Shown here: positions 1 through 36,957 of the stretch, piece by piece
How the letters are laid out: the number at the start of each line of letters is the position of its first letter
Numbering within the stretch: the first letter of the stretch is position 1
IMG/VR virus record: IMGVR_UViG_3300017544_000286
Coordinates: 1-40,183 of that record
Reading direction: 5' to 3' (one strand)
DNA: 40,183 nt
Source of the DNA: a virus
Lineage: Duplodnaviria > Caudoviricetes
Notes under the pieces: generated by a model
Seen by the model: only the letters and a program-made list of their open reading frames with translations
Told to the model about the DNA's origin: nothing
The model's database searches: none
Made by a program: the position numbers and the translations under genes

Positions 1-1233
1 TCAAGCCTTCTTCGGCTCGAGCGCACGCGCGGCGCGCTGCATGATGTCGACGCCGTCATCGGCGTCGTCGAACAGGTGACCATAGGTGTCGTAGGTGATC
101 TGGATGGAGGCGTGGCCCGCCCAGGTCATCACCTGTTTGGGCTTCGCGCCGGCCAGGATCCAGAACGAGACGGCCGCATGGCGCAGGCAGTGGAAACTGA
201 ATTTAGGCCGTTCCACCGGGACCAATTCCGCATCTTCGCTGTCGTCCTTGGGCTCGAGCGTGATGACGGTCAGCCCGGCCGCGCGCATGAGGGGCAACCA
301 AAGGCGCTGGGCGAGGTTGCTGTAGTTCTCCGGGTTGCCGGCCCCGTTCGGGAACAGCAACTGGGCGTCACCCTTCGGGCAGGCGAGACGCCAGACCTTG
401 ACGGCTTTGACGGTGTCCGGGCCGATCGGCACATCCCGTTTGCCCTTCTTCGACTTCACCGCCCCAATTTTCCCCCATTGGTCGGCGCGCTGGCGCACGC
501 GGATTTTTGGGGTGTTCGATCCGGCGGTCGGCAGATCCTTCAGGCGGAGGCCCCGCAGCTCGGAGATCCGTAAGCCAACAAACATGAGGCACGCGACGAA
601 CGCGGCAGCGCGGCCGGTCGTATCGTACGTCCCGGCGGCCAGCCATAAGGCATGACATTCCTCGATGGTCGGAAAATAGTCATCATCGTCTATGTCGGGA
701 CGGTGGTCGTCGGTGCGGATTGAGATGCCCGCCGTGGGGTTGGATGTCATCCATCCGCTGGCGCTGCAAAAATCCAAAATCTGGCCGAAGGTCGCCCATA
801 CCTTCTTGGCCATCTCGATCGAGAGTTTTTCTTCCAGCGCGCGCGCGTAAACCATGCAATCCGGCCCGGTCAGCTTCTGCACTTGGATCTTGGATACGTC
901 ATAGGGGACGATATGCAGCCGCACGTGCGTATCGTATTGCTTTAAGGTCGATCGTTCGCGCCGGATGCGGCCCTGTTCATCGGGCTCGGTCAGCTTCTTG
1001 AAATCCCGAAGATAGGCCTTTGCTCCGATCTCCACGGTGATCGGGGCATCGGCCGGCTCGGTGACGCCGGCGGCGAGCTCGCCTTCGATACGGATGCGCT
1101 CGCTGTTCGCTTCCGCCTTCGTGTCGAACTGCTTGCGCTTCCGCTTGCCGTTGCCATCCCGGTAATTCAGCTGCCAGGTGACAGTTCTGGATAAGTCGGT
1201 GTTCGTCCAGGTGCGTTTGCGGATGGTGGCCAT
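1..1233 (-). CDS. int: Tyrosine recombinase (phage integrase)
   Basis: Catalytic motifs GLRISELRGL, HCLRH and GHASIQITYDTYGH; N-terminal arm-binding-like region (WQLNYRDGNGKRKRKQF). Confidence 0.95.
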   Translation of the reverse strand: MATIRKRTWTNTDLSRTVTWQLNYRDGNGKRKRKQFDTKAEANSERIRIEGELAAGVTEPADAPITVEIGAKAYLRDFKKLTEPDEQGRIRRERSTLKQYDTHVRLHIVPYDVSKIQVQKLTGPDCMVYARALEEKLSIEMAKKVWATFGQILDFCSASGWMTSNPTAGISIRTDDHRPDIDDDDYFPTIEECHALWLAAGTYDTTGRAAAFVACLMFVGLRISELRGLRLKDLPTAGSNTPKIRVRQRADQWGKIGAVKSKKGKRDVPIGPDTVKAVKVWRLACPKGDAQLLFPNGAGNPENYSNLAQRLWLPLMRAAGLTVITLEPKDDSEDAELVPVERPKFSFHCLRHAAVSFWILAGAKPKQVMTWAGHASIQITYDTYGHLFDDADDGVDIMQRAARALEPKKA

Positions 1234-1267
1234 GCGGGCGAATTATGATCCGGATTGGAGAGGGAGC

Positions 1268-1513
1268 TCAAGCCGCGCCCCGGCGGGCCGCAGATTCGGC
1301 CCGTTCACGCCGCCAACGATCCAGCGCGCCGCGGGTGGAGACGATACCCAGGCCAGGTTCCTTCCATATGGGCATGGTATGGCCCGGGGTTTCCAGGACC
1401 TGATAGACCTGCCGCGGTGTCATCGGTTTCATGAAATCGGCGATCTTGCGGGCCCCGATCAGCAAATCGTCTGCTGTGGAGCTTTCTGCCGATACAAACT
1501 GCGTCTCGGTCAA
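1268..1513 (-). CDS. Putative excisionase / small DNA-binding protein
   Basis: 81 aa directly upstream of int; TTG start with GAGGAG RBS; DDLLIGARKIADF...RQVY pattern typical of Xis-like proteins. Confidence 0.65.
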   Translation of the reverse strand: MTETQFVSAESSTADDLLIGARKIADFMKPMTPRQVYQVLETPGHTMPIWKEPGLGIVSTRGALDRWRRERAESAARRGAA

Positions 1514-2076: not shown

Positions 2077-3186
2077 TCATGATCTGCTGCTCCTGGCAGT
2101 AGCCTTGGTCAGGCCGCGATCGAGCTTGAGGCCGCGCCGAAACGCCGTTCGCGCGATGGCCTCGATCTGCCGCCGATTACCTGAATGGCGGAACAGACCC
2201 AGATAGGATGTGGCGCTGTCGGGGAGGTCTTCGCGTGGCATGGTGGCCAGGCGTGCAAGTGCGGTCCGGTGTGTTTTCGGTCGCGCCGATCTGCGATGCG
2301 GGCGAATGACATGGCCGACGAAATCGACACCCTTTTCCACCGGTGCGACGAATGTCTTGCTCTCGGCCAGCTCCAGGCTGAGGCCTGCCAGGCGCGCGCG
2401 GATGGCGTCGGCGGCGGCCAGCAGGACCTTCGGTTCGTGGTGGAGAAGGACCATGTCATCGACGTAGCGGACATAGCGCAGGCCGAGGCGGCGCTTGACC
2501 ATCTGATCGACTGGATCGAGATAGACGTTCGCGAAGAACTGGCTGCTGAGGTTGCCGATGGGCAGGCCGGTGCCCGGCGGCGCCTGAAACAGGCTCTTGT
2601 GTGGCGGTACCCGCGCCAAGGTGCGGGCATCGTCGTGCACAATCGCGCCCTTGCGCACATCCTGGAACACCAAGCGCCGGCACAGCTCCAGGATGGTCGG
2701 ATCGGTCACCCGGCGCGCCAGCATATCGAACAGCGTGTCGTGGCGGATCGAGCCGAAGAAGTTGGCGACATCGGCCTTGAGATAATAGGCCGGCCGGTGC
2801 CAGCCTTCGGTCACCGAGCGCAGGTGACGGTGCAGACGGTTGGCGGCATAGAGGGTGCCACGCCCTTTGATGCAGGCGCAGGAATCGGCAATGAAGGCCG
2901 GTTCGAACAGCGGATTGATCGCGCGATAGACCAGATGGTGCACGATCCGATCCTTGAACTGCGCTGCCCAGACCTCGCGCGGCTTCGGGCGCGTGATCGC
3001 GAAGACGGTGGCCGGTGACGGCCACCACGTGCCGCTACGCAGCTCGGCCAGCAGATCCATCAGGTTGTCTTCGAGGGAGATCTCGAATTCCAAGGCGGAG
3101 CGCGTGGTGCGCTTATGGCGACGGCATTCGTAATAGGCCTCGAAAAGCTGGCCCACGGTGATCTCGGATGGCTGATGGACGATCAT
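2077..3186 (-). CDS. DGR-class reverse transcriptase
   Basis: Motifs KPREVWAAQFKDRIVHH, YLKADVANFFGSI, GLPIGNLSSQFFANVYL (SQ motif of DGR RTs), YVRYVDD and GVDFVG. Start placed at ATG 3186; the longer ORF-track start lies inside TR. Confidence 0.95.
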   Translation of the reverse strand: MIVHQPSEITVGQLFEAYYECRRHKRTTRSALEFEISLEDNLMDLLAELRSGTWWPSPATVFAITRPKPREVWAAQFKDRIVHHLVYRAINPLFEPAFIADSCACIKGRGTLYAANRLHRHLRSVTEGWHRPAYYLKADVANFFGSIRHDTLFDMLARRVTDPTILELCRRLVFQDVRKGAIVHDDARTLARVPPHKSLFQAPPGTGLPIGNLSSQFFANVYLDPVDQMVKRRLGLRYVRYVDDMVLLHHEPKVLLAAADAIRARLAGLSLELAESKTFVAPVEKGVDFVGHVIRPHRRSARPKTHRTALARLATMPREDLPDSATSYLGLFRHSGNRRQIEAIARTAFRRGLKLDRGLTKATARSSRS

Positions 3187-3187
3187 G

Positions 3188-3272
3188 TGCGGACGGCCCG
3201 GACGCGGTTGTTCCAGTCCTTGTTGTTGTTGTTCTGGTTGCCGTTGTTGAAGTTCTGGATCCACGCCGAGCC
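3188..3272 (-). repeat. DGR template repeat (TR), 85 bp
   Basis: AAC-rich, reading GSAWIQNFNNGNQNNNNKDWNNRVRAVR. Aligns without gaps to 3973-4057 and 4814-4898 with mismatches at TR adenines; lies between avd and RT. Confidence 0.95.
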
Positions 3273-3496
3273 GGATCTATCGAGGGTGTACAGGCCGGAC
3301 CGGCGATTGCCGTGATCGGGCAGATAGGTGCCCATCTTCTCGATTTGGCATCGACGCCGGTCAAGCTGCGCCGGGACGCGCGGTGGAGCACCCGCCGTAT
3401 CCGCATTGGCGCCTGGAGCGACAACCATTGGCATCGACATTGCCGCTACCCCGACCAAATGATGTGCGCGGACCGGAAGGCCTTGACCTTCAAGCA

Positions 3497-3853
3497 TCAG
3501 GCACGACTCCTTGCGTAGTTCAGCCATCCCGACGCCTGCTTACCGATGGCGTCGGTGAGTTCCACCGTGGCGCCGAAGGACGCCGCTGAGATCAGGCGCA
3601 GGTCCTTGGAGAGCCGCAGCAACAGCTTGAGCGTCTCCAGGTGTTCCCGCAGGTCTTCGATCGCCGATGGGCGACGATCCGTGCCGGCGGAGTTGGCGCG
3701 GAAGATCCCCACCACCACCGCGAGGGCCTCTTCGGAGACCTTGCGTCCCAAACCCTGGCGATGACCGCGCGGATATTGCTGCGTCAGCTTCTCGATAAGC
3801 TGAACCAGGTCATAAGCCGGGCGATAGATCGCCAATTGTTCGGAGCGCGCCAT
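3497..3853 (-). CDS. avd: Avd-like DGR accessory protein (four-helix bundle)
   Basis: 118 aa basic helical protein (LAIYRPAYDL...YPRGHRQGLG...LKLLLRLSKDLRLI...IGKQASGW) in the canonical position between target and TR. Confidence 0.88.
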   Translation of the reverse strand: MARSEQLAIYRPAYDLVQLIEKLTQQYPRGHRQGLGRKVSEEALAVVVGIFRANSAGTDRRPSAIEDLREHLETLKLLLRLSKDLRLISAASFGATVELTDAIGKQASGWLNYARSRA

Positions 3854-3922
3854 GCAAAATCTCTCTAGGCGTCGCCGGCAGTGCCGGCAGTTACATCAGT
3901 CGGCGGCTTACGCCACCGATGC

Positions 3923-3946
3923 TCCCGGCCGCCGGAGCGGCCGGGA
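3923..3946 (-). other. DGR target-recognition hairpin downstream of VR1
   Basis: Perfect 10-bp stem TCCCGGCCGC/GCGGCCGGGA with a 4-nt loop, 12 nt past the target 1 stop codon. Confidence 0.8.
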
Positions 3947-3958
3947 AAGAGGTAAAGA

Positions 3959-4495
3959 CTAAAGTTGGCATTTGCGGACGGCCCGGACGCGGGTGCTCCA
4001 GACCTTGCCGCTGCTGATCTGGTCGCCGCTGGTGAAGTCCTGGAGCCACGCCGAGCCCTTGGAAAACTCGGTCGATGTCCAATACCATTCGCGCTCGAAT
4101 GCTTCGGGTCCGCCCTCGCGGAACGCCTCGGCGGTGGTCTGTTCCGGAACGTAGCCCGTGCCCGGCATGAGGTTGCGGCGCAGCACGGTCATCTCGTCCA
4201 GCGCCGGCAGGTACCAGTCGTCATGGCCGCCGATCCGCAAGGAGCGGCAGAACTGCGCGGCGGGATGATCCTCGTCGTTGAGGGCTTCGGAATTGGCAAA
4301 GCCATCAGTCAGCGAGCGGGCGGTCGTTATGCCGTCCGGGCCCCAGGTCAGTTCTTCGGCCTCGCCTTCGGCCTTCGGTGCGACAACGATGGCGATGTTC
4401 GGCTCGGTCGGATGAAGTCCGCCGAAGAAGCCGCCGCCGAAAGGTGCGCCAATGGCGGGGATCGTGCTGGTGCTGTGTGGTGCGAGGTCGTTCAT
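3959..4495 (-). CDS. DGR target protein 1, DUF1566/Lcl-C (CLec-fold)-like
   Basis: Motifs GGHDDWYLPALDE, WYWTSTE and C-terminal RVRAVR; carries VR1 at its 3' end; GGAG RBS. Confidence 0.9.
   Translation of the reverse strand: MNDLAPHSTSTIPAIGAPFGGGFFGGLHPTEPNIAIVVAPKAEGEAEELTWGPDGITTARSLTDGFANSEALNDEDHPAAQFCRSLRIGGHDDWYLPALDEMTVLRRNLMPGTGYVPEQTTAEAFREGGPEAFEREWYWTSTEFSKGSAWLQDFTSGDQISSGKVWSTRVRAVRKCQL
3973..4057 (-). repeat. DGR variable repeat VR1
   Basis: 85-bp ungapped match to TR with 13 mismatches, all at TR adenines on the coding strand. Confidence 0.95.
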
Positions 4496-4496
4496 G

Positions 4497-4736
4497 TCAG
4501 TCTCCGTTCAAAGCGGCGACGCGGCGCATCATGGATGAATGCGTGTCGCCGTCGTTGTAGGTTTCGAAATGGAAATTCTTGCCGCATCCGTGGCAGGTCA
4601 GCGCGCCTTTCATGGTCACGATGCCGTAGCCACTTTTGACGCGTGGGTCGCGCCAATAGTCGTCAAAACGATCTTCGCCGCAGGCCGGACAAATTGGGCC
4701 GTGCTTCGAGATTTTGATGGCAAGTTCTTTGGGCAA
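4497..4736 (-). CDS. Small zinc-ribbon protein
   Basis: CPAC...CHGC motif; fills the space between the two DGR targets; TTG start uncertain. Confidence 0.6.
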   Translation of the reverse strand: MPKELAIKISKHGPICPACGEDRFDDYWRDPRVKSGYGIVTMKGALTCHGCGKNFHFETYNDGDTHSSMMRRVAALNGD

Positions 4737-4764
4737 GGGCGGCTCTACAGGATCAAATGGGTTG

Positions 4765-4786
4765 CCCGGCCGCCGGCGCGGCCGGG
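4765..4786 (-). other. DGR target-recognition hairpin downstream of VR2
   Basis: 9-bp stem CCCGGCCGC/GCGGCCGGG with a 4-nt loop; same sequence and spacing as the VR1 hairpin. Confidence 0.8.
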
Positions 4787-4799
4787 AAAGGGCTAAAGA

Positions 4800-5333
4800 C
4801 TAAAGTTGGTATTTGCGGACGGCCCGGACGCGGTCGTCCCAGAACTCGCGGGTGGTGACCTGGTAGCCGTAGTAGAAGAGCTGGATCCACGCCGAGCCGG
4901 GCGTGCATTCGGTGGACGTCCAGTACCACGCCCGCTCGAACGCTTCGGCGCCACCCTCGCGGAACGCCTCGGCGGTGGTCTGCTCCGGAACGTAGCTCGC
5001 ACCGGGCAACAGGTTTTCCGCCAAAAGCCAGGCTTCGTGCCGGCTAGGCAGATACCAGTCGTCATGACCACCGATCCGCAAGCCGCGGCAGAACTGCGCG
5101 GCGGGATGATCGTCGTCATTCATCGCCTCGCTGTTGGCGAAGCCGTCGCGCAGCGAACGTGCGCCGGCATCCGCGCCATCCCGTGTTCTGAATTTCAGGC
5201 GAGCCTCGCCCTCGGCCTTGGGTGCGACGATCAAAGCGAAGCGGTTGCCGTCGCGGTCGTAATCGACGGCCGCCAAAAAACCGCCCTGGAAGGGCTGGCC
5301 GATGGCGGGAAGGATGGTGTCGGTCTTGGTCAT
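4800..5333 (-). CDS. DGR target protein 2, DUF1566/Lcl-C-like paralogue of target 1
   Basis: Shares long blocks with target 1 (HPAAQFCRxLRIGGHDDWYLP, YVPEQTTAEAFREGG, WYWTSTE). ATG 5333 has an AGGAG RBS; the frame stays open upstream to ATG 5585. Confidence 0.88.
   Translation of the reverse strand: MTKTDTILPAIGQPFQGGFLAAVDYDRDGNRFALIVAPKAEGEARLKFRTRDGADAGARSLRDGFANSEAMNDDDHPAAQFCRGLRIGGHDDWYLPSRHEAWLLAENLLPGASYVPEQTTAEAFREGGAEAFERAWYWTSTECTPGSAWIQLFYYGYQVTTREFWDDRVRAVRKYQL
4814..4898 (-). repeat. DGR variable repeat VR2
   Basis: 85-bp ungapped match to TR with 16 mismatches, 15 at TR adenines and one G>T. Confidence 0.95.
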
Positions 5334-5581
5334 GATGGTCTCCTGCGGTTTCAGCTGCGTCGCGTTCATCGCGGGCAGGTCACATTCGTGTTCGGGGAAT
5401 GCTTCGATGTCGTCTTCGACGCCGACAAAGAGGACCTCGGCACCGATGCCTGGATCGTCGACCGCGTCCGCAGCGCACATCTCTTCATCGATGCCCATGG
5501 CCTTGGCTCTGGTCAGATGCTCGTCGGTCAGCGTGACGACGTAGGTCCGCTTGACGGTCTCGGTGACGAGGAACCGTTTGC

Positions 5582-5776
5582 TCATAGCGCGTTGCTCGCA
5601 TCGTGTTGGGCGGAAAGGATGCGCATGCCGCAATGGGCGCATTCGCAGAACTGGAGCGGATCGTTCGGCATCGGCGGCAAAAGCGGGCCATGGCCATCGC
5701 GGTGGCAGCGGGTGAGGCGCGCATCCAGAACGACGACATAGAGCGGACCGGTCGGGAATTTCGGCAGGCGCGGCAT
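5582..5776 (-). CDS. Small Cys/His-containing hypothetical protein
   Basis: MPRLPKF...CHRDGH...CECAHC; its stop overlaps ATG 5585 (ATGA). Confidence 0.55.
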   Translation of the reverse strand: MPRLPKFPTGPLYVVVLDARLTRCHRDGHGPLLPPMPNDPLQFCECAHCGMRILSAQHDASNAL

Positions 5777-6937: not shown

Positions 6938-7016
6938 GTCCCATTCCCTTGTGATGAGATTATAAAATCACATCATAATGGGATATGACAAGGACAAAAT
7001 CACATTACGAAGTGAT
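6938..7016 (-). promoter_or_regulatory. OL/PL: three 18-bp repressor operators
   Basis: GTCCCA-N6-TGTGAT (6938-6955), ATCACA-N6-TGGGAT (6967-6984) and ATCACA-N6-AGTGAT (6999-7016) in an AT-rich intergenic region. Confidence 0.8.
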
Positions 7017-7457
7017 TTTTTGTGACACTGAGGGGAGACGGCAGATTTTTGTCCAGGCGGCTTCGATCGCCCGCATCTGACGCGTGAGCGTAATTATTTG
7101 CTTGGCGGACGAACCTGCTCGAGGGAAACCATTGAGCCTCAAGACCAGCCTCAAAACTGGCCAGCCCCGCCAAGGCGAGTCCAAGCCCGGCGGGGTTGTT
7201 GTTTTTCGGGCCTTAATTCCGCCCCAGCGGCACCGCTAGGGCCTCGGCACTATCTCATCGTCCGTCCACCCAGCTACTCGGAAATGGAAGATCGCCCGGG
7301 CCATCATTTCCGATGCTAGGACATCATCCCCGATCCCGGCCGTCTTCAGTGTCGAGATGACCCGATTAATGGCATGGTGCGTGTCGTCGGAATCGTCGCC
7401 CACGGTTCGGGAGCCTAAGTAATCGATGAGATCAGCGTCGCGGCTCGCTCGGGAACA

Positions 7458-8553: not shown

Positions 8554-9342
8554 TCACAGCTTCCTCGCCACGATCCAGATGACTCGGCCGATTAAATTGA
8601 TCTCTTCCTCCCGAAAAAGCTTTGGAGGTCCGTACTTTGGGTTATCAGAGATCACTTCAATCTTCTGGTTGGGCACATCTCGGTGCAGTCGCTTGACCCA
8701 GGCGATATCGCCGACCTGCATGCCATAGATTCCGGGACGACTGATTTTGCGCTGGGAGCGATCAACCAAGACCCAATCGCCATCAAAGAGCGTCGTTTCC
8801 ATGGAATCGTTGTCTACGCGGAGCGTGATCAAACAGTCGGGCGCCGCCCTTGTGATTGCACGTAACCAGGATGTCTCGAAGAGATGGTAGCCAAGTGGTT
8901 CAGCGTTCGGCTCCAAGATGCTGCCCGGGCCGGCAGATAAACCAGCGTCAAAGCGTGGGATCGCGGTGAAATCTGTCCCACCTATCGAGAACACTCCGCT
9001 CGTCAGGCCCCCCGAATACATCGGCATGTGATCGGAAATCTCGCCGCGGCGGCCGATCGAGGCTGGAAGGCACGTATTCTGTGCCGCAGCGGGCGTCGAT
9101 ATATCGTCGGTTGCCATGTCAAGATAGAGCCATTCAACTGGCTTGTCATACGCAGCAGCCAGCTTTTCCTCGGTTTCGCGGTCCAGTTTCTGGGAGCCGC
9201 CGTCGCGCCGATAATTATAGAGGATGTTCTTGGATTTGATGCCTGCGTCGCGCAGCCAGGTGGCCGGCTTGATCCCACGCCTCTCCATCAGCTCGAAGAA
9301 GGCCTCCCGCTTGGCATCCAGTTCCTGCTTACTCGGCATCAT
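8554..9342 (-). CDS. cI: CI-like phage repressor (HTH + S24 autopeptidase)
   Basis: N-terminal HTH-like domain; LSAGPG cleavage-site motif; DSMETTLFDGDWVLVD (Ser) and WVKRL (Lys); divergent from cro. Confidence 0.9.
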   Translation of the reverse strand: MMPSKQELDAKREAFFELMERRGIKPATWLRDAGIKSKNILYNYRRDGGSQKLDRETEEKLAAAYDKPVEWLYLDMATDDISTPAAAQNTCLPASIGRRGEISDHMPMYSGGLTSGVFSIGGTDFTAIPRFDAGLSAGPGSILEPNAEPLGYHLFETSWLRAITRAAPDCLITLRVDNDSMETTLFDGDWVLVDRSQRKISRPGIYGMQVGDIAWVKRLHRDVPNQKIEVISDNPKYGPPKLFREEEINLIGRVIWIVARKL

Positions 9343-9353
9343 AGCGTCGTACC

Positions 9354-9441
9354 ATCACAGCGGAGTGTGATCGACAGGCATGTGATGTGACAAAGCACCT
9401 TATGATGTGATTTCGCCTTGTATATCCCATCATGATGTGAT
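9354..9441 (+). promoter_or_regulatory. OR/PR/PRM: three 18-bp repressor operators
   Basis: ATCACA-N6-TGTGAT (9354-9371), AGCACC-N6-TGTGAT (9394-9411) and ATCCCA-N6-TGTGAT (9424-9441) between cI and cro. Confidence 0.8.
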
Positions 9442-9452
9442 TTCTTGCAGTC

Positions 9453-12835: not shown

Positions 12836-13188
12836 CGCATCCCCAAACATCGCGCTTCGCCCGCATGGACGGATTCGAGAAGGTCGCGTTCGCCGAATGC
12901 TGGCTATCGCCGGACTGGACGGTCGAACGCATCATGGTCCGGTTCGGCATGAGCCAATCCATAGTCTACGCAGTTGCGGAGAAGCTTCATCTAAAGGGGC
13001 GGCGTCCGAAGCTGGATGTGCATTCGGGCCATTTTGCGCCCACCTGCCTCAAGGTGCGCCGATGCTTGATGTGTGGCGATGAATTCAGCTCGAGCCATAT
13101 CGGCGAACGCGTCTGTACGGCTTGTAAGACGACATCCGCCTGGCGGAGCGGCGACGAATTCAGATTGACGATTGCGAGGCGCGCATGA
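12832..13188 (+). CDS. HTH protein with C-terminal zinc ribbon
   Basis: GTGA-coupled start; GcrA-like N-terminal pattern (TVERIMVRFGMSQSIVYAVAEKLHL); CLMC...CTAC. Confidence 0.6.
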   Translation: MTHPQTSRFARMDGFEKVAFAECWLSPDWTVERIMVRFGMSQSIVYAVAEKLHLKGRRPKLDVHSGHFAPTCLKVRRCLMCGDEFSSSHIGERVCTACKTTSAWRSGDEFRLTIARRA

Positions 13189-14015
13189 GCACGCCGCAGG
13201 ACCGGCCCGAATGGGGCGCCCGGCCGGAACTCGTCGAGCTGCCGGTCGAACGGATCTCGGTCGATCCGCGCTATCAGCGCGATACCGGATCCGCACGGTC
13301 CCGCCACCTGATCGACAAGATCGCCGCCCATTTCCGTTGGCCGCGCTTCGGCGCGATCCTGGTCGTGCGCGTTCTGAAGGCAGATGGCGGGGGCTGGCAC
13401 GTCATAGATGGCCAGCACCGGTTGGAAGCGGTCCGCGTGCTCGGTATCCAGCGCGTGCCGGCGATCGAACTGCCGCATCAGACCATCGAGGAAGCCGCCG
13501 CCGACTTCGTCGCGATCAATCGCGATCGCGTGGTCGTGACGCCGCTGCATATCCATCATGCGATGTTGCGTGCGGGCGAGCCGACGGCCCTGGCGGTCGA
13601 CCGTGCCTGCGGGGCGGCGGGTATCGAGATCTGTCGCTATCCTGTTCCCGCCAAGCTGCTGAAGCCGGGCCAGACCCTCGCCGTCGGCACGATCCGGCGC
13701 CTGATCGAGAAGGTCAACGAGGATTGGGCCACGCGCGTCCTGCGCGGGGTTGTGCGCGAGCATGGGACCCGGCCGGGCGCGATCAATGCGGCGGCGATCC
13801 GATCGAGCGCGGCAACGACGCCGGTCCCGGCCTCGACCTCGGCCGGCGCGGCGCCGCGCAGCGACAACCAATACGCAAAGCCGAAGGCACAGGGCGATGT
13901 GAAGTTCCGCAGTTGCCTATCCTGCCGGCAGCCGTTCAAGAGTTCCGGCATCGGCGAACGCGTCTGCCCCAATTGCAAATCCACGTCGGCCTGGCGCGGG
14001 GCGAGCATCGAATGA
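13185..14015 (+). CDS. ParB-like N-terminal domain protein with C-terminal zinc ribbon
   Basis: VDPRYQR and VIDGQHRLEA motifs; CLSC...CPNC. Confidence 0.8.
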   Translation: MSTPQDRPEWGARPELVELPVERISVDPRYQRDTGSARSRHLIDKIAAHFRWPRFGAILVVRVLKADGGGWHVIDGQHRLEAVRVLGIQRVPAIELPHQTIEEAAADFVAINRDRVVVTPLHIHHAMLRAGEPTALAVDRACGAAGIEICRYPVPAKLLKPGQTLAVGTIRRLIEKVNEDWATRVLRGVVREHGTRPGAINAAAIRSSAATTPVPASTSAGAAPRSDNQYAKPKAQGDVKFRSCLSCRQPFKSSGIGERVCPNCKSTSAWRGASIE

Positions 14016-15832
14016 GCGAGCAAACCCTCGTATGCACCGGCAAGGCCCACCCGCTGGCCGATGCGTTCCCGATGATCACGGGCGCGGAGTTCGACAAGCT
14101 GGTCGCCTCGATCCGTGAGATCGGGCTTGCCGAACCGATCGCGTTGACCGCCGAAGGTGATATCGCGGATGGCCGGAACCGCTTTGCCGCGTGTTCCGAG
14201 GCCGGTGTCACGCCGGAATTTGTTTCCTGGAAGACACAGGCATTGGCCGGCGAGGATCTGGTCAAGTTCATCGTCCGCAAGAACCTTCGCCGGCGTCAGC
14301 TGACGCCATCTCAGCTGTCCATGGTGGCGGTGAAACTGGCGACCCTGTCGCACGGCGGTGACCGACGGTCCGACGACGCTGCAAATTTGCAGGTTGAACC
14401 CGATATTCCGATATCAGCCGGGCAAGGCGCAAATTTGCGCCTTGAAAATGACGGGGCGGCTGTCAGCCGGGCTAATGCTGCCCAGATGTTGGGTGTCAGC
14501 GAACGCTCCGTGGACTCTGCAGCGACGGTGGAAGAGCACGGTGCCCCAGAAATCGCCCAGGCCGTGCGCGATGGCGCGATCAAGGTCTCGGCGGCGGCGG
14601 ATATCGCGCGGCTGCCGAAGGACGAGCAGGCCGAGATCGCGAAGAACCTGGACCCGAAGGTCATCAAACGAGTCGCGAAGGATATTCGCGCCAGACAGAC
14701 CGAAAAGAACCGGCAAAAGCGCCTGCAGCGTGCCGAGGAAGCCGCGCGTGGGAGGAAGCCGCTTTCCGATATCGTCGCGCTCGGGCGGCGCTACGTCGTC
14801 GCGATGATCGATCCGGCATGGCAGCGCGAGACCTACGGCGAAGGCGGCAAGGACAAAGCGCCGGAGAATCATTATCCGACCGAAACCGAGGATCAGATCG
14901 CGGCGCATCCGGTCGGCGAATTGATGGCGGACGATGCCGTGATTTTCGTCTGGACCACCGTGCCCGACCACGAGGCCGGCAAGACCCATCGCGTGATCCG
15001 CGCATGGGGCTTCGAGCCGAAATCCCATTACATCTGGGCGAAGACGAACGCGGACGGCACGCCCTTCATCGGCACCGGATATTGGAACCGGAATTGCCAT
15101 GAGATCCTGGTGGCGGCGACGCGCGGCGATATCCCGGCGCCGCTGATGGGGACGCAGCCGAACAGCATCATCTATGCGCCTGTCGGCGAACATTCGGAAA
15201 AGCCGGATGCATTCCGCGAAATGATCGACAGCTTCTATCCTGGCATCAAGAAGATCGAGCTCAACCGGCGCGGTTCTGCCTATCGCGATTGGGATGCCTG
15301 GGGCGATGAATTCACGCCGGGTGAAATGGCCGATGCCGGCGCCGCCGACATGAGGCAGCCCGACGTCGAGGGCGACGGTGCGCCTGATACCGACGATGAT
15401 GCTTGCGCCAATTGTGTGCGCTGGATGTTCAGCCATCGCGCTGGCGTCGACCTCATCGGCCAATGCAACTGGCGGCATTGCTTTACGGACGCTCGCTATG
15501 TGTGTGGTGACTTGGTGATGGCGCATCGCGATGCGCGCCGGGAGATGCGCGGACGTCTCGAAACCGAGCCCGACAGCGGAATGGCGCCGCGCGGTGAGCT
15601 TTTACGCGCATCCGATATCGACATGGAACGCGATGGCGGTTCCCATGACGCCGCCGAAAGCGATCCGATGTTCGAAGACGGCGCGGACGACCCGGCTCCG
15701 ACCGCATTGAACACGTCGCGCGATCTCTGCCGATGCGGGCGCGGATGCGGCTTGAAGCCGGACGAGGATTGTCCGCTCGACATCCCGGATTTTCTACGCA
15801 AGCGCAAACGCGAGGATTTGGAACATGCCTGA
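14012..15832 (+). CDS. ParB-like domain fused to MT-A70 family N6-adenine methyltransferase
   Basis: HPLADAFP...IADGRNRFAAC...NLRRRQLT (ParB-like), then DPAW, ENHYPT, WGFEPKSHYIWAK, GTGYWNRNCHE and HSEKP (MT-A70). True start is ATG 14012. Confidence 0.85.
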   Translation: MSEQTLVCTGKAHPLADAFPMITGAEFDKLVASIREIGLAEPIALTAEGDIADGRNRFAACSEAGVTPEFVSWKTQALAGEDLVKFIVRKNLRRRQLTPSQLSMVAVKLATLSHGGDRRSDDAANLQVEPDIPISAGQGANLRLENDGAAVSRANAAQMLGVSERSVDSAATVEEHGAPEIAQAVRDGAIKVSAAADIARLPKDEQAEIAKNLDPKVIKRVAKDIRARQTEKNRQKRLQRAEEAARGRKPLSDIVALGRRYVVAMIDPAWQRETYGEGGKDKAPENHYPTETEDQIAAHPVGELMADDAVIFVWTTVPDHEAGKTHRVIRAWGFEPKSHYIWAKTNADGTPFIGTGYWNRNCHEILVAATRGDIPAPLMGTQPNSIIYAPVGEHSEKPDAFREMIDSFYPGIKKIELNRRGSAYRDWDAWGDEFTPGEMADAGAADMRQPDVEGDGAPDTDDDACANCVRWMFSHRAGVDLIGQCNWRHCFTDARYVCGDLVMAHRDARREMRGRLETEPDSGMAPRGELLRASDIDMERDGGSHDAAESDPMFEDGADDPAPTALNTSRDLCRCGRGCGLKPDEDCPLDIPDFLRKRKREDLEHA

Positions 15833-15845
15833 TGGGGGTTATCGC

Positions 15846-16088
15846 ATGGCGGATGTGGGTGGAATTGCAGGCGATCGGCTGAAATCGTTCGTCGAGCGGA
15901 TCGAACGGCTTGAGGAAGAAAAGGCCGCGCTGGCGAGCGATATCCGCGATGTCTACGCCGAAGCGAAGTCGTCCGGCTTCGACGTGAAGATCCTCCGCCA
16001 GGTCATCAGGCTGCGCAAGATGGACGAGCCGGACCGCAACGAACAGTTCGAGCTCATCGATCTCTACATGCGCGCCATCGGGATGTGA
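15846..16088 (+). CDS. gapR: GapR/DUF2312 nucleoid-associated protein homologue
   Basis: LKSFVERIERLEEEKAALASDIRDVYAEAKSSGFDVKILRQVIRLRKM is the DUF2312 signature. Confidence 0.9.
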   Translation: MADVGGIAGDRLKSFVERIERLEEEKAALASDIRDVYAEAKSSGFDVKILRQVIRLRKMDEPDRNEQFELIDLYMRAIGM

Positions 16089-17003: not shown

Positions 17004-17869
17004 GCATCAAGGCGATGACATGGGCGTGGGACCAGGATGTCGGAACCGAAACCGAGCTGCTGGTCCTCCTGGCACTCGCCGATCGGGCCAACGATGACGG
17101 TGAAAGCTGTTTTCCCGGCAATCCGGAAGTGGCGCGCAAGGCGCGGGTCAGTGTGCGTTCCGTTCCGCGCATCGCCGACCGGCTCGAAGCGCGCGGTCTG
17201 ATCAAGATCCTGCCGCGCGAAGGCCGCTCGAACGAGTACAAGTTGAACGTCCGTAACGAGGCTTGGCCGGGCCATCAAATGGTGAAGACCCCTGCCACCG
17301 TGTCAGGGGTAGGGGATGACTCCCAGGAGTCAGGGGTATCGGCGGGCGGACCCCTGCCACAGAGTCAGGGGTGCCCTGACTCCCAGGAGTCAGGGGGGGA
17401 TGACTCCCAGGAGTCATACGAACGTCACTTAACATCAAAACATCAGGGCCCGGGCAACGGCGATGCCGTGCCCTCGTCGCCGGTCGGCTCGGCTGGCGAG
17501 GGCCAGCCGACCGGCTCCGAACCGGAAGCGATCAAACCACCTGCGGCGAATGCGGGATGGAAGGCGGTGGCCGACAAGATCCGGTTCTCGTTCACGACAC
17601 GTGATTTCGAAAAGATCATCGAGCCACTGACCGCGATCTGCGATGCGGACGGTGTCCTGACACTGGGTGCGTTGTCGGACCAGCATGTCGATCAGTTCTC
17701 AGCGGCCAAGGCGCTGGATGGAAGGTCTGCCAGGCAGGTGCTTGCCGATCTGCTTGGCCGGCAGATCGAGGTTCGTGTCTGGACCGAGGTTACGCCGGAG
17801 GCTCGGCAACGAGCGTCCGCGCAACGCCGATCCAAGCGACTGATGGGCAGACGGGAGCAGGCGGCATGA
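17000..17869 (+). CDS. Phage replication initiator (N-terminal winged HTH)
   Basis: SIKAMTWAW...LVLLALADRANDDGESCFP pattern; iterons in a central low-complexity linker. Confidence 0.85.
   Translation: MSIKAMTWAWDQDVGTETELLVLLALADRANDDGESCFPGNPEVARKARVSVRSVPRIADRLEARGLIKILPREGRSNEYKLNVRNEAWPGHQMVKTPATVSGVGDDSQESGVSAGGPLPQSQGCPDSQESGGDDSQESYERHLTSKHQGPGNGDAVPSSPVGSAGEGQPTGSEPEAIKPPAANAGWKAVADKIRFSFTTRDFEKIIEPLTAICDADGVLTLGALSDQHVDQFSAAKALDGRSARQVLADLLGRQIEVRVWTEVTPEARQRASAQRRSKRLMGRREQAA
17288..17416. repeat. Iteron array, putative phage replication origin
   Basis: Five related palindromic units (3x TGACTCCCAGGAGTCA, 2x ACCCCTGCCAC..GTCAGGGGT) inside the initiator gene, followed by an A-rich stretch. 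Confidence 0.8.
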
Positions 17870-18360
17870 AGTTATGGTACGTCGTCGAATGCATCGCGAG
17901 ACAGGAACGCAAGGCCGTGGCTGCGCTATTGGCCGAGGGCTACCAACATACGCTGCTGCCGATGTGCAAATCGTGGGAATACAAGCGGTCGTGGGAGGAG
18001 CAGCCATGGTTCCCTCGCTATCTCTTCGTCAACTGCGAGCAGTATGGCCGCAAGCCCGGCCGTGACACGCGCAATGGTATCGTTGGTCTGCTTCGTTTTG
18101 GTGATTCGCTCGGAATTGTCTCCGACGAGGTGATCGCTGCCATACGCGCTCGCCTGAAGGAAGAAGGCGGATGCATCGTGCTCAATCGCCGCGCCTATTA
18201 TCGAAATGGGCAGAAACTCGCCATTTCGGACGGGCCGTTCGCCGGTCATGAAGGTTTGTTCGTGCGCTCAGCGCAGCATCGAAGCGCGGCCCTACTTGAC
18301 CTGATCGGAAAATCCATGCGAGTTCGTATACCAGTCGAAGCCGTCCGAGCCGTGTCGTAA
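17866..18360 (+). CDS. NusG/RfaH-like antitermination factor (late regulator)
   Basis: WYVVEC...PWFPRYLFV NGN domain and ISDGPFAGHEG KOW motif; occupies the lambda Q position. Confidence 0.85.
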   Translation: MKLWYVVECIARQERKAVAALLAEGYQHTLLPMCKSWEYKRSWEEQPWFPRYLFVNCEQYGRKPGRDTRNGIVGLLRFGDSLGIVSDEVIAAIRARLKEEGGCIVLNRRAYYRNGQKLAISDGPFAGHEGLFVRSAQHRSAALLDLIGKSMRVRIPVEAVRAVS

Positions 18361-34699: not shown

Positions 34700-35491
34700 A
34701 TGGTCGCGAAAATCGCCTTGAGCTGGGTCAACCAAATCGACGCCAGCGCCACGACCCTGTCCGCGTCCTCGACCGCGGGCGATCTCAGCATCAGCAATAT
34801 TGCCACTCCCATCATCGGCCGGCGCTGGCGCACAACCAGTATGACGGCCTATGGGCTGGCGGATTTTGGATCGGATAAGACGATCGGGCTGCTGGCCTTG
34901 GTGTTTCCCCGTGATACGGCCTTTCCGACGACGGGCACGATCACGCATGCCCTGGATGCCGATGGCGGAACGCCAGGATCCGGCGCTGTCCTCGATGAGG
35001 CGGTGAACATCAATGCGACCAATGGCCCTGTGGCGGGTTACGGCTATCACGTCTACAAGCTGGCGACGCCAGTATCGGCTCGCTATTGGCGCTTCACCTT
35101 CGATGTCTCGGGCGTGCCCTTCATCGATGTCGGCCGAGCCTGGGCCGGGGATGCGTGGCAGCCGGATCTCAACATCGCCTTTGGCTATGGCGACGAATGG
35201 GGTGATCTGAGCCGCGTGTCGCGCTCGACCCGATCCGGTGCCGAGTTCATCGACGAACGGCCTCGGCAACGCGCCTTTGCCTATTCCCTGGAAGCCCTGA
35301 GTGCCGGCGAGCGCGACGATCTCCGCGAGATGCAGCGCATCATCGGGATCTCCAAGCAGCTGCTGTTCGTCAAGGATCCGGACAGTCCGGCGACGGAAAC
35401 CGTGATCGGTCGCATCGATCAATCGACGCCGCTGCTGCAGCCGTATTTCTCTCTCTCTTCCAAAGCCTTCACCGTTCGGGAGTCCCTCTGA
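34700..35491 (+). CDS. Tail tip protein
   Basis: 263 aa in the tail module; ARYWRFTF...DVGRAWAG. Confidence 0.7.
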   Translation: MVAKIALSWVNQIDASATTLSASSTAGDLSISNIATPIIGRRWRTTSMTAYGLADFGSDKTIGLLALVFPRDTAFPTTGTITHALDADGGTPGSGAVLDEAVNINATNGPVAGYGYHVYKLATPVSARYWRFTFDVSGVPFIDVGRAWAGDAWQPDLNIAFGYGDEWGDLSRVSRSTRSGAEFIDERPRQRAFAYSLEALSAGERDDLREMQRIIGISKQLLFVKDPDSPATETVIGRIDQSTPLLQPYFSLSSKAFTVRESL

Positions 35492-36957
35492 TGGCCGTCA
35501 AGTTTGCCGATCGCGTTGTCGAAACCACGCAGACCACCGGGACCGGCACGCTCGATCTGGCCGGTGCAGCCGATGGATATCTTGCGTTTTCCGACGAGCT
35601 GACGGACGGCGATGAGATCGCCTATGTGATCGAGGATGATCCGACCGATCCGAGCGAGTGGGAGCTGGGCCTCGGCACGTTCACTGCCGGGTCGCCGAAC
35701 ACGCTGAGCCGCGATACGGTCTACAAATCGTCCAACAGCGGCAACAAGATCAGCCTGCAATCCGGCACCACCTATACCGTGACGGCCGTTCTGTCGCGGC
35801 ATCAGATCGGCAGCTACATCCGCAAGAACAGCAATGTCCTGGCCAAGACGGCCGATTATACGGTCGTCGCCGCCGATGACGGCAAGCTGATCAAGGCCGA
35901 TGGATCGGGCAACGATCCGGCAGGCCTGACCATTACTCTGCCGCCGGAAGCTACGGCGGGGGATGGCTTCGTCTTGGCGGTCCTCAACGATGGTTCGTCA
36001 GGCGCGGTGACGGTCAATGATGACGGGGGTTCGGAAATCGTCACGCGCCAGAGCGAGGGGGATTCTGCGCTCCTCCGCTGCGACGGCACCGCATGGTACG
36101 TCGTTGCCGAATTCTTATCGACCGTCAGCCAAACGGAGGCGGTAGCGGGCACATCGACAACGCCACGCGCCTGGACTGCTGAACGCGTCAAGCAGGCAAT
36201 CCAGGCACAAAGCGCACTGCCGCGTTCATATATTTCTGGGCTCGGGCTTTCCAATAATTCAACCGATAGCAATAAGGATATCGATATAGCGGCCGGGGAA
36301 TGCCGGGATAGCACGAATGCAGCGGATCTTGTCCTGGCGGCAGCGCTCACGAAGCAGCTCGACGCTGCATGGGCTGTTGGAACGAGCCAAGGCGGCCTCG
36401 ATACCGGAACGGTTGCAGCAAACACATGGTATCATGTCTGGCTTATCAAGCGCTCCGATACGGGCGTCGTCGACGCGCTGTTCTCCTCATCGGCCAGTAG
36501 CCCGACAATGCCGACGGACTACGATTACAAGCGTCGTGTGCGCGGCTCCATTCTGACGGATGGTTCGGCAAATATCATCGCCTTCAAACAGCGTGGTGAT
36601 CAGTTCCTTTGGGCGACCGCCGCATTGGACATCAACACAAGTTCAGCCAACTCGGGTTCGGTGCTCTTAAGCATTTCAGTGCCGTCTGGGATTAAAGTTG
36701 ATGCGCAAATCCGCGCGCGATCGCAACACAACACGTCCAGTCATGGGTTTCTGCTATCGAGCCCCGACCAAGCTGATGTTGCGGCAGGAACCTCAACTGG
36801 CGTCTCGTTGACTGCGGGAGGCAGTGACCCAGCCGCCGGACAGTTTTCGATCCGCACCAATACATCCAGTCAAATCCGCGCGCGGGCCGACGGATCGGGG
36901 GTTGCGTACCGAATTTACACAGATGGCTGGGTCGATCGTGCAGGGAGGGACGAGTGA
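35491..36957 (+). CDS. Tail fibre / receptor-binding protein
   Basis: N-terminal DRVVETTQTTGTGT anchor; modular Thr/Ser/Gly-rich body; last large tail gene. Confidence 0.75.
   Translation: MAVKFADRVVETTQTTGTGTLDLAGAADGYLAFSDELTDGDEIAYVIEDDPTDPSEWELGLGTFTAGSPNTLSRDTVYKSSNSGNKISLQSGTTYTVTAVLSRHQIGSYIRKNSNVLAKTADYTVVAADDGKLIKADGSGNDPAGLTITLPPEATAGDGFVLAVLNDGSSGAVTVNDDGGSEIVTRQSEGDSALLRCDGTAWYVVAEFLSTVSQTEAVAGTSTTPRAWTAERVKQAIQAQSALPRSYISGLGLSNNSTDSNKDIDIAAGECRDSTNAADLVLAAALTKQLDAAWAVGTSQGGLDTGTVAANTWYHVWLIKRSDTGVVDALFSSSASSPTMPTDYDYKRRVRGSILTDGSANIIAFKQRGDQFLWATAALDINTSSANSGSVLLSISVPSGIKVDAQIRARSQHNTSSHGFLLSSPDQADVAAGTSTGVSLTAGGSDPAAGQFSIRTNTSSQIRARADGSGVAYRIYTDGWVDRAGRDE

What the first reader, a model, noticed from the sequence alone, without database searches (positions are those of the whole stretch)
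2077..5333. Complete two-target DGR that diversifies small non-structural early proteins, not the tail fibre
Seen: on the minus strand the order is target2(VR2)-hairpin, Zn-ribbon ORF, target1(VR1)-hairpin, avd, TR, RT. TR (3188-3272) aligns ungapped to VR1 (13 mismatches, all at A) and VR2 (16 mismatches, 15 at A). Established: this is the adenine-specific mutagenic retrohoming signature of Bordetella phage BPP-1, whose target is the tail-fibre protein Mtd. Here the targets are about 178-aa stand-alone DUF1566/CLec-like proteins with no signal peptide or TM segment, about 30 kb from the tail genes and on the opposite strand. Inference: the phage hypervaries intracellular binding proteins, perhaps to inhibit host defences, take over the host or exclude competing phages. 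The 26 mutable adenines give 4^26 (about 4.5e15) possible DNA variants per VR. I cannot tell whether this class is already catalogued.
Basis: partly seen in the sequence, partly recalled or inferred. Interest (0 to 1): 0.95.

Follow-up and report, generated by a model that had tools for sequence, protein, structure and literature searches.

The report
Hypermutated protein pair in early operon
A temperate phage carries a complete mutagenic retroelement that has rewritten the tips of two small lectin-fold proteins encoded among its early genes rather than its tail genes; this kind is already catalogued and common, but the two proteins are predicted to pair like antibody chains and likely bind something inside the infected cell that is still unknown.

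Summary
Confirmed: a complete two-target DGR. TR differs from VR1 at 13 of 13 and from VR2 at 15 of 16 mismatches at adenines. Hairpins, avd, an intact RT and an Rfam RT-15 RNA are present, and the tail fibre has no VR. The class is catalogued. Its close relative in Magnetospirillum magneticum AMB-1 (targets 63-65% identical) is a reference DGR (CLec2, d1, B1; clade 3, PC_00009, called 'non-structural/unknown'). Cultured phages Magia, Haboob, Cruim01 and QDWS have the same placement. This scan also found the class before on other DNA (at least five notes). Added here: (1) an operator-like 20-mer shared with the cI/cro region heads the operon; (2) 73 of 88 related small-target DGRs sit among early genes, against 0 of 9 large-target ones; (3) the two paralogues are position-conserved subtypes, modelled as a dimer whose variable strands meet at the interface (0.82 against control 0.02; homodimers untested). 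Corrections: target 2 may be 261 aa; adenines before G hardly mutate, so about 23 sites vary; current activity of this copy is not shown. The ligand is unknown; an intracellular counter-defence or takeover binder is the best guess.

The parts
4800..5585 (-). Target 2 (upstream, 'RHEA' subtype): Lcl_C/DUF1566 CLec-fold protein; 177 aa from ATG 5333 (AGGAG site) or 261 aa from ATG 5585 with an 84-aa acidic extension of no known family
4814..4898 (-). VR2, 16 mismatches to TR, 15 at A
4765..4786 (-). GC-rich hairpin after VR2 (9 bp, GCCG loop)
4497..4736 (-). 79-aa putative Zn-ribbon ORF between the targets; weak Pfam hits below cut-off, no homologue in fetched loci; likely a passenger insertion
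3959..4495 (-). Target 1 (avd-adjacent, 'LDQM' subtype), 178 aa, CLec fold (AF2 pLDDT 94; Z 14.2 to the Lcl C-terminal domain 8q4e)
3973..4057 (-). VR1, 13 mismatches to TR, all at A
3923..3946 (-). GC-rich hairpin after VR1 (10 bp, TCCG loop)
3497..3853 (-). avd, 118 aa
   Evidence: Pfam bAvd 46 bits over cut-off 40; PHROG 3206; NCBIfam NF033474 51 bits, under its cut-off of 80
3273..3506 (-). Rfam RT-15 structured RNA, directly 5' of TR
   Evidence: 87.2 bits against gathering score 82
3188..3272 (-). Template repeat, 10 in-frame AAC codons; its 3' end abuts the RT start
2077..3186 (-). DGR reverse transcriptase, 369 aa, intact frame, YVDD
6965..7018 (.). Two operator-like sites in the most AT-rich stretch of the window, heading the leftward operon (putative oL/pL)
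9394..9443 (.). Matching operator-like sites in the gap upstream of cI (putative oR)
8554..9342 (-). CI-like repressor (S24 peptidase domain)
1..1513 (-). Putative excisionase (1268-1513, by size and position only) and tyrosine integrase (1-1233) ending the same gene run

Best explanation
This is a canonical diversity-generating retroelement in the leftward early gene run of a temperate phage, likely repressor-controlled, that has rewritten the C-terminal tips of two small soluble lectin-fold proteins, which are predicted to pair through their variable strands and likely act as an antibody-like binder of a changing host molecule inside the infected cell. Shown: TR, two VRs with adenine-specific changes, hairpins, avd, RT, RT-15 RNA, position between repressor and integrase, no VR in the tail fibre. 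From established BPP-1 biology (PMC12875486): RT-Avd copies the TR RNA with errors at A, and the cDNA replaces each VR. Inferred: co-transcription from a pL-like promoter near 6950-7020, so that editing and expression occur on infection or induction; exclusion from virions; dimer formation; and a ligand that is a fast-evolving host protein, most likely a defence component, otherwise a factor to be taken over.
For: TR/VR signature. Contiguous same-strand gene run from 6901 to the integrase with gaps of -4 to 105 nt, apart from the 310-nt RNA gap. All 5 matches of a 20-nt operator-like pattern lie in the two control regions (chance 0.01; 2 of the 5 defined the pattern). Among 102 distinct related RTs, 88 have verified targets of 330 aa or less. 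Of these, 73 of 88 have an integrase or xis downstream, a repressor/cro/cII upstream, or a same-strand recombination, replication or nucleotide gene; 0 of 9 large-target DGRs do. Only 1 of 88 has a structural gene within 5 kb upstream. The same placement holds in lambdoid cultured phages and in Mu-like early regions beside MuB and Gam (L121, L043). The two paralogues cluster by position, not genome, in all 9 two-target loci of the window's subgroup (SH-aLRT 85 and 87; overall 6 label changes against shuffled mean 10.9, 2 of 500). Complex model T1+T2: score 0.82, best of 3 controls 0.02; the mark was reached by 116 of 157 solved and 2 of 215 mismatched pairs; runs agree in at least 89% of contacts; partner pLDDT at least 89. 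The interface is pseudo-two-fold and centred on VR residues 156-161. The closest solved relative is a trimer (PMC11162425). Family activity: 6 of 37 near-identical target pairs differ in the VR, 5 of them mostly at TR adenines.
Against: No ligand, expression or virion data. No VR variant of this copy in 8 runs laid (contigs only, several possibly the source sample). The complex is symmetric, so homodimers fit equally and were not tested; paralogues and my own alignments weaken the calibration. The interface loop 114-118 is absent in L051, L133, L138 and L154, and 15 of 88 loci show one verified target (some are truncated). 11 of 88 small-target DGRs have a lysis, terminase or other structural gene within 2.5 kb downstream on the same strand, mostly the deltaproteobacterial clade, where late expression is possible. 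The same domain caps 539-589 aa tail-module proteins, two of them (L059, L139) in the window's own RT clade. Target pairs persist in early regions without an RT (Medea1, L004/L169, L159, L168, L200), so continued variation is dispensable. No sigma-70 promoter was found at the putative pL.
Confidence: 0.55

Rival explanations
1. The targets are minor virion or virion-associated proteins (decoration, ejected or accessory receptor-binding subunits) encoded out of place.
For: The same domain ends tail-module proteins in sister DGRs (L059, L139, L193, L090). Some small-target cassettes sit just upstream of terL or lysis genes. PMC8144416 notes that PC_00009 may hold uncharacterised structural proteins.
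Against: Opposite strand to all late genes, behind an operator-like motif. No assembly domain. 1 of 88 loci has a structural gene upstream.
Confidence: 0.12
2. Prophage-encoded defence or superinfection exclusion: the lysogen makes variable binders that recognise incoming phage proteins.
For: Soluble variable binders would suit this. A DGR target in a defence-related island was proposed for Quimbyvirus (PMC8008677). Three short RNA contigs match the RT in one metatranscriptome (may be DNA).
Against: The cassette lies in the gene run headed by repressor-type operators, not in a separately promoted moron. No effector domain is fused or conserved beside the targets.
Confidence: 0.15
3. Cytoplasmic proteins released at lysis that bind cell-surface glycans or receptors, for example masking receptors or tuning adsorption of progeny or rivals.
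For: The closest solved folds are surface adhesins: Lcl binds glycosaminoglycans; fimbrial tip and Bdellovibrio fibre domains also match.
Against: Early rather than late placement in most relatives; fold likeness shows no function.
Confidence: 0.1
4. The cassette is a largely selfish or hitch-hiking module that inserts into the permissive early region, and the targets do little.
For: Variable target number (1-4), loss of RT, random N-terminal fusions such as the 84-aa extension here and DUF6378 in P0065. Much of the Tyr/Gly/Ser/Asp enrichment is intrinsic RT bias.
Against: Two subtypes are conserved across phages with many invariant residues, and the genes are kept after RT loss.
Confidence: 0.08

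Closest known systems
Magnetospirillum magneticum AMB-1 DGR (AP007255.1_497668; Table S1 row 50 of PMC5758913; Table 2 of PMC3521204; clade 3 / PC_00009 / 'viral' in PMC8144416)
   Same: TG-TG-AVD-TR-RT (B1), CLec2 VRs, stand-alone DUF1566 targets (d1/d1), strong stem-loops. Targets are 63% (T2) and 65% (T1) identical. The RT of locus L121, which encodes the identical targets, is 84% identical.
   Different: That copy lies in a Mu-like early region (transposase, MuB, Gam); this one is in a lambdoid int-cI arm, with a Zn-ribbon ORF between the targets and an in-frame extension on target 2. PMC5758913 listed no phage homologue for it.
Burkholderia phage Magia DGR (MT701587; PMC7883833) and the like in Pseudomonas phages Haboob, Cruim01, LPPA56, Shewanella phage QDWS and Burkholderia phage E192a
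   Same: Short lectin-fold targets, avd and RT (46-50% identical) in the early arm leading to the integrase; RT-15 is annotated in Cruim01.
   Different: Other host classes; Magia targets are 120-154 aa. The paper suggests adaptation or host range and does not discuss early placement.
Bordetella phage BPP-1 DGR (mtd-avd-TR-brt)
   Same: Adenine-specific TR-to-VR change, AAC-rich TR, GC-rich 3' end, stem-loop, Avd, RT.
   Different: Clade 6, CLec1, single tail-fibre target; RT only 30% identical. BPP-1 has its structured spacer 3' of TR; here a structured RNA lies 5' of TR and TR abuts the RT start (87 of 87 loci measured).
Quimbyvirus second DGR target (PMC8008677)
   Same: A phage DGR target away from and opposite to the structural module, proposed to act in phage-host conflict.
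   Different: Bacteroidetes gut phage; a remote target paired with a structural one; homology to this family was not tested.
Legionella Lcl C-terminal domain (PDB 8q4e) and LdtA (CLec2)
   Same: DUF1566/Lcl_C CLec fold (Z 14.2, rmsd 2.9 over 124 residues).
   Different: Surface-exposed; Lcl is a trimer. These targets have no export signal and are modelled as a dimer.

Membership tests
Diversity-generating retroelement | TR/VR pair differing almost only at TR adenines | tested here: met
   13 of 13 and 15 of 16
Diversity-generating retroelement | Intact DGR-type RT | tested here: met
   369 aa open frame, YVDD, RVT_1, PHROG 1423; groups with verified DGR RTs
Diversity-generating retroelement | Accessory avd gene | tested here: met
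   Pfam bAvd above cut-off, PHROG 3206; NCBIfam equivalog below cut-off
Diversity-generating retroelement | GC-rich 3' end/IMH and stem-loop after VR | tested here: met
   Shared GC-rich 3' end, then divergence from TR; hairpins. IMH function not assayed.
Diversity-generating retroelement | Ongoing retrohoming of this copy | tested here: inconclusive
   No variants in contigs of 8 runs; contigs drop rare variants. Relatives do vary.
CLec2 / category d1 / architecture B1 (PMC5758913) | Stand-alone DUF1566 target with C-terminal VR; order TG-(TG)-AVD-TR-RT | tested here: met
   PF07603 hits; 63-65% identity to the row-50 reference targets. Target 2 would be d2 (extended) if started at 5585.
Clade 3 / PC_00009 (PMC8144416) | RT and target cluster with PC_00009 references | tested here: met
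   By close homology to the AMB-1 references assigned there; the paper's own clustering was not rerun.
C-type lectin fold | Structural match of the target | tested here: met
   AF2 pLDDT 94; Foldseek 8q4e E 2.6e-5; VIA Z 14.2, CLec domains fill the list, TvpA Z 7.1
Rfam RT-15 RNA | Score above gathering threshold | tested here: met
   87.2 against 82; its single-strand folding z is only -0.45
Tail-fibre DGR (BPP-1 type) | VR in a receptor-binding tail protein | tested here: not met
   No TR-like site outside the two small genes
Lambdoid pL early operon | Repressor operators ahead of a gene run ending in xis/int | tested here: met
   Sequence level only
Lambdoid pL early operon | Early, repressor-controlled transcription | not testable with these tools
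   Needs time-course RNA; no promoter consensus was found at the site
Non-virion protein | Absence from purified particles | not testable with these tools
   Needs proteomics

The most novel reading that the evidence does not exclude
Temperate phages across Proteobacteria carry a two-chain intracellular 'antibody': two DGR-diversified CLec paralogues pair through their variable strands into one combinatorial binding site, made early in infection to neutralise whichever host defence protein blocks the phage. That would be an adaptive, somatically mutated counter-defence.
Probability: 0.22. Interest if true: 0.88.

Novelty: new member of a known kind. Interest (0 to 1): 0.45.

Why it matters
Phage DGRs are usually read as host-range devices, and the published catalogue leaves this large target cluster as 'non-structural/unknown'. 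The element here is ordinary as a member, but the evidence sharpens an open question into testable form: early, repressor-linked placement, conserved paralogue pairs and a modelled composite variable surface. Cultured phages exist with the RT (Cruim01, Haboob, Magia) and without it (Medea1), so ligand and function can be tested now. If the pair is an adaptive counter-defence binder, it would be a new role for DGRs and a small, likely cytoplasmic two-chain scaffold for in vivo binder evolution. The 5' position of the structured RNA also suggests a priming layout unlike BPP-1.

Tried and rejected
Reads: 8 runs were laid as contigs and showed no VR variants. A coverage break over VR1 in X5 and X6 is not evidence. 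RNA contigs in X7 cover only parts of the RT at depth 2-4, and DNA carry-over is not excluded. Selection on Q152, Q159 and K164: at first read as purifying selection, rejected because adenines before G stay unchanged even at silent sites (0 of 25, against 18 of 29 before A). Tyr/Gly/Asp/Ser enrichment (21/15/14/11% of 1265 AAY codons) as proof of selection for binding: rejected as sole evidence, since BPP-1 RT has a similar intrinsic bias (PMC12875486). The sigma-70 scan found no promoter at the putative pL. The short operator core TGATGTGAT alone is not above chance (14 against 8.3). No family for the 84-aa extension of target 2 or the other small ORFs of the arm. The RT tree is the quick version only; the careful search did not finish. 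Paper searches with no report of early-operon placement or heterodimers; subscription journals and bioRxiv supplements are not covered. att sites were not identified. CheckV gives 51% completeness, although genes run from integrase to spanin.
Full report
Observation. On the minus strand the TR (3188-3272) aligns without gaps to VR1 (3973-4057) with 13 mismatches, all at TR adenines, and to VR2 (4814-4898) with 16 mismatches, 15 at adenines (p about 1e-8 each). Both VRs end their genes and are followed by GC-rich hairpins. avd (3497-3853) and a 369-aa RT with YVDD (2077-3186) follow. The gap between avd and TR matches Rfam RT-15 above its gathering score. No other TR-like site exists in the window, including the probable fibre gene at 35491-36957. 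Corrections: target 2 is open from 5585 (261 aa) with a strong inner start at 5333 (177 aa). The 30-kb distance to the fibre shrinks to about 7 kb on the circularised genome. The variant count is nearer 4^23, because adenines before G changed in 11 of 722 family cases and 0 of 25 silent ones.

Setting. The window is a provirus record with integrase, CI-like repressor, replication, head, tail and lysis genes. GapR and the nearest named RT relatives (Magnetospirillum, Ferrovibrio, Telmatospirillum) point to an alphaproteobacterial host (inference). The DGR lies in a tight leftward gene run from 6901 to the integrase. That run is headed by the most AT-rich stretch of the window, which shares a 20-nt motif with the gap upstream of cI. 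All 5 matches with up to 3 mismatches fall in these two places against 0.01 expected, 2 of them by construction. This is the layout of lambda oL/oR (recalled knowledge); repressor binding and timing are not shown, and no sigma-70 consensus was found there.

Target proteins. Both carry Lcl_C/DUF1566. The AlphaFold2 model of T1 (pLDDT 94) matches the Legionella Lcl C-terminal domain (Z 14.2) and other C-type-lectin folds. Hydropathy and lipobox tests show no membrane anchor or lipoprotein signal.

Family survey. From 206 fetched loci plus the window I called genes with my own script, kept 129 RTs of 280 aa or more and collapsed them at 95% to 102. 97 have at least one verified VR (185 VRs; 2519 changes at A, 68 elsewhere) and 5 have none detected in the DNA held. 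88 have targets of 330 aa or less, 73 of them with two or more targets; 9 have large single targets. Using only PHROG-named markers (150 cluster representatives annotated), 73 of 88 small-target loci have an integrase/xis downstream, a repressor/cro/cII upstream or a same-strand recombination, replication or nucleotide gene; 0 of 9 large-target loci do. A looser nearest-neighbour count (71 of 88 early-only) uses some labels that I recalled (YfdQ, ASCH, gp37/gp68). Against the reading: 11 of 88 have lysis or structural genes within 2.5 kb downstream, 15 of 88 have no strict marker, and two members of the window's own RT clade (support 100) edit tail-module proteins. The searches started from this target and RT and kept the best 80 hits per scan, so these are proportions among relatives, not among all phage DGRs. 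Target pairs also persist without an RT. Among 37 near-identical target pairs, many of them the same contig fetched twice, 31 are identical and 6 differ in the VR, 5 mostly at TR adenines. For this copy, contigs of 8 runs show no variant.

Pairing. Of 120 listed homologues, 40 are of an 'SRHEA' type and 28 of an 'ALDQM' type. In the window's subgroup the upstream and avd-adjacent targets cluster by position in all 9 two-target loci (SH-aLRT 85 and 87); in the other loci of the clade they do not. The T1+T2 model scored 0.82 against a best control of 0.02 (mark reached by 116 of 157 solved and 2 of 215 mismatched pairs; at least 89% contact agreement; partner pLDDT at least 89), with VR strand 158-161 pairing across a pseudo-two-fold axis. 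Four of these interface positions (156, 158, 160, 161) are AAC codons in the TR. The model supports binding but does not show it, and cannot tell hetero- from homodimers. The closest solved relative is a trimer, so memory of a like dimer is not evident but is not excluded.

What is known. PMC5758913 (passages and Table S1 rows) defines category d, notes that about half its targets are short stand-alone DUF1566 proteins, and lists two AMB-1 DGRs with this exact architecture. PMC3521204 (passages) lists them among multi-VR DGRs. PMC8144416 (two sections, passages, supplement rows) files them as viral, clade 3, PC_00009, and calls that cluster non-structural/unknown. The reference targets are 63% and 65% identical to T2 and T1. 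PMC7883833 (announcement text) reports a DGR with short targets in phage Magia, whose record places them between repressor and integrase. PMC8008677 (passages) proposes a non-structural DGR target in phage-host conflict. PMC12875486 (passages and one section) gives the BPP-1 mechanism and intrinsic bias. PMC11162425 was seen as passages. I found no paper stating the early-operon placement as a class feature or a two-chain target; closed journals and bioRxiv supplements were not visible. Earlier notes of this scan describe the same class on other DNA; they are not independent support.

Mechanism. Shown: the parts and their past action. Inferred: on infection or induction the leftward operon makes the two targets, Avd, the RT-15/TR RNA and the RT; retrohoming edits both VRs on replicating phage DNA; the two CLec chains dimerise and present one variable surface to a cytoplasmic ligand. 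I put an intracellular early binder (counter-defence first, takeover second) at 0.55, lysogen defence or exclusion at 0.15, a virion role at 0.12, a lysis-released surface binder at 0.10 and a near-neutral passenger at 0.08.

Verdict. A real, complete, ordinary member of a catalogued and common DGR lineage. The function of its targets is an open question that the operator link, the subtype pairing and the cultured relatives make directly testable. Interest 0.45.

Noticed in passing
window 3273-3506 and 20 loci: RT-15 RNA lies 5' of TR in 15 of 15 early-type loci tested and 0 of 5 outgroup loci. TR ends 40-59 nt before the first conserved RT motif in 87 of 87 loci measured, leaving no 3' spacer.
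   Followed up: partly
157 ungapped TR/VR pairs of 176: Adenines followed by G are almost immune (11 of 722; silent sites 0 of 25), so CAG and AAG codons protect scaffold residues inside the VR. Doubly mutated AAC codons go mostly to GG, CT or TT.
   Followed up: partly
window 3900-3919: Second 8-bp GC-rich hairpin with a GTAA loop after the VR1 hairpin, absent after VR2.
   Followed up: no
L059:8852-10621, L139:8939-10642, L193:8972-10591: Related RTs drive 539-589 aa targets behind tape-measure or baseplate genes, showing switching between early and tail roles.
   Followed up: partly
L198 (phage Medea1) 8190-9498; L205 (Cruim01): Syntenic early regions with the DUF1566 pair, without RT in Medea1 and with avd-TR-RT in Cruim01: a natural comparison.
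   Followed up: partly
L140, L155, L145, L147, L143, L135, L132, L053: Deltaproteobacterial clade places the cassette just before lysis or terminase genes, in L140 and L155 right after a Mor-like activator.
   Followed up: no
window 13172-15832: 886-aa ParB-like plus MT-A70 methyltransferase ORF; also a GapR-like gene at 15825-16088 and a NusG-like antiterminator at 17866-18360.
   Followed up: no
window 13099-13145 / 13950-13996 and 17312-17416: A 47-nt duplicated Zn-finger-coding end shared by two adjacent ORFs, and three 21-nt repeats inside the replication initiator gene (likely iterons).
   Followed up: no
window 35491-36957: Probable tail fibre has a weak Mtd second-domain hit (below cut-off) but no VR.
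   Followed up: partly
runs X1-X6: Other contigs in the same soils carry TR-like and RT-like pieces of related DGRs.
   Followed up: no
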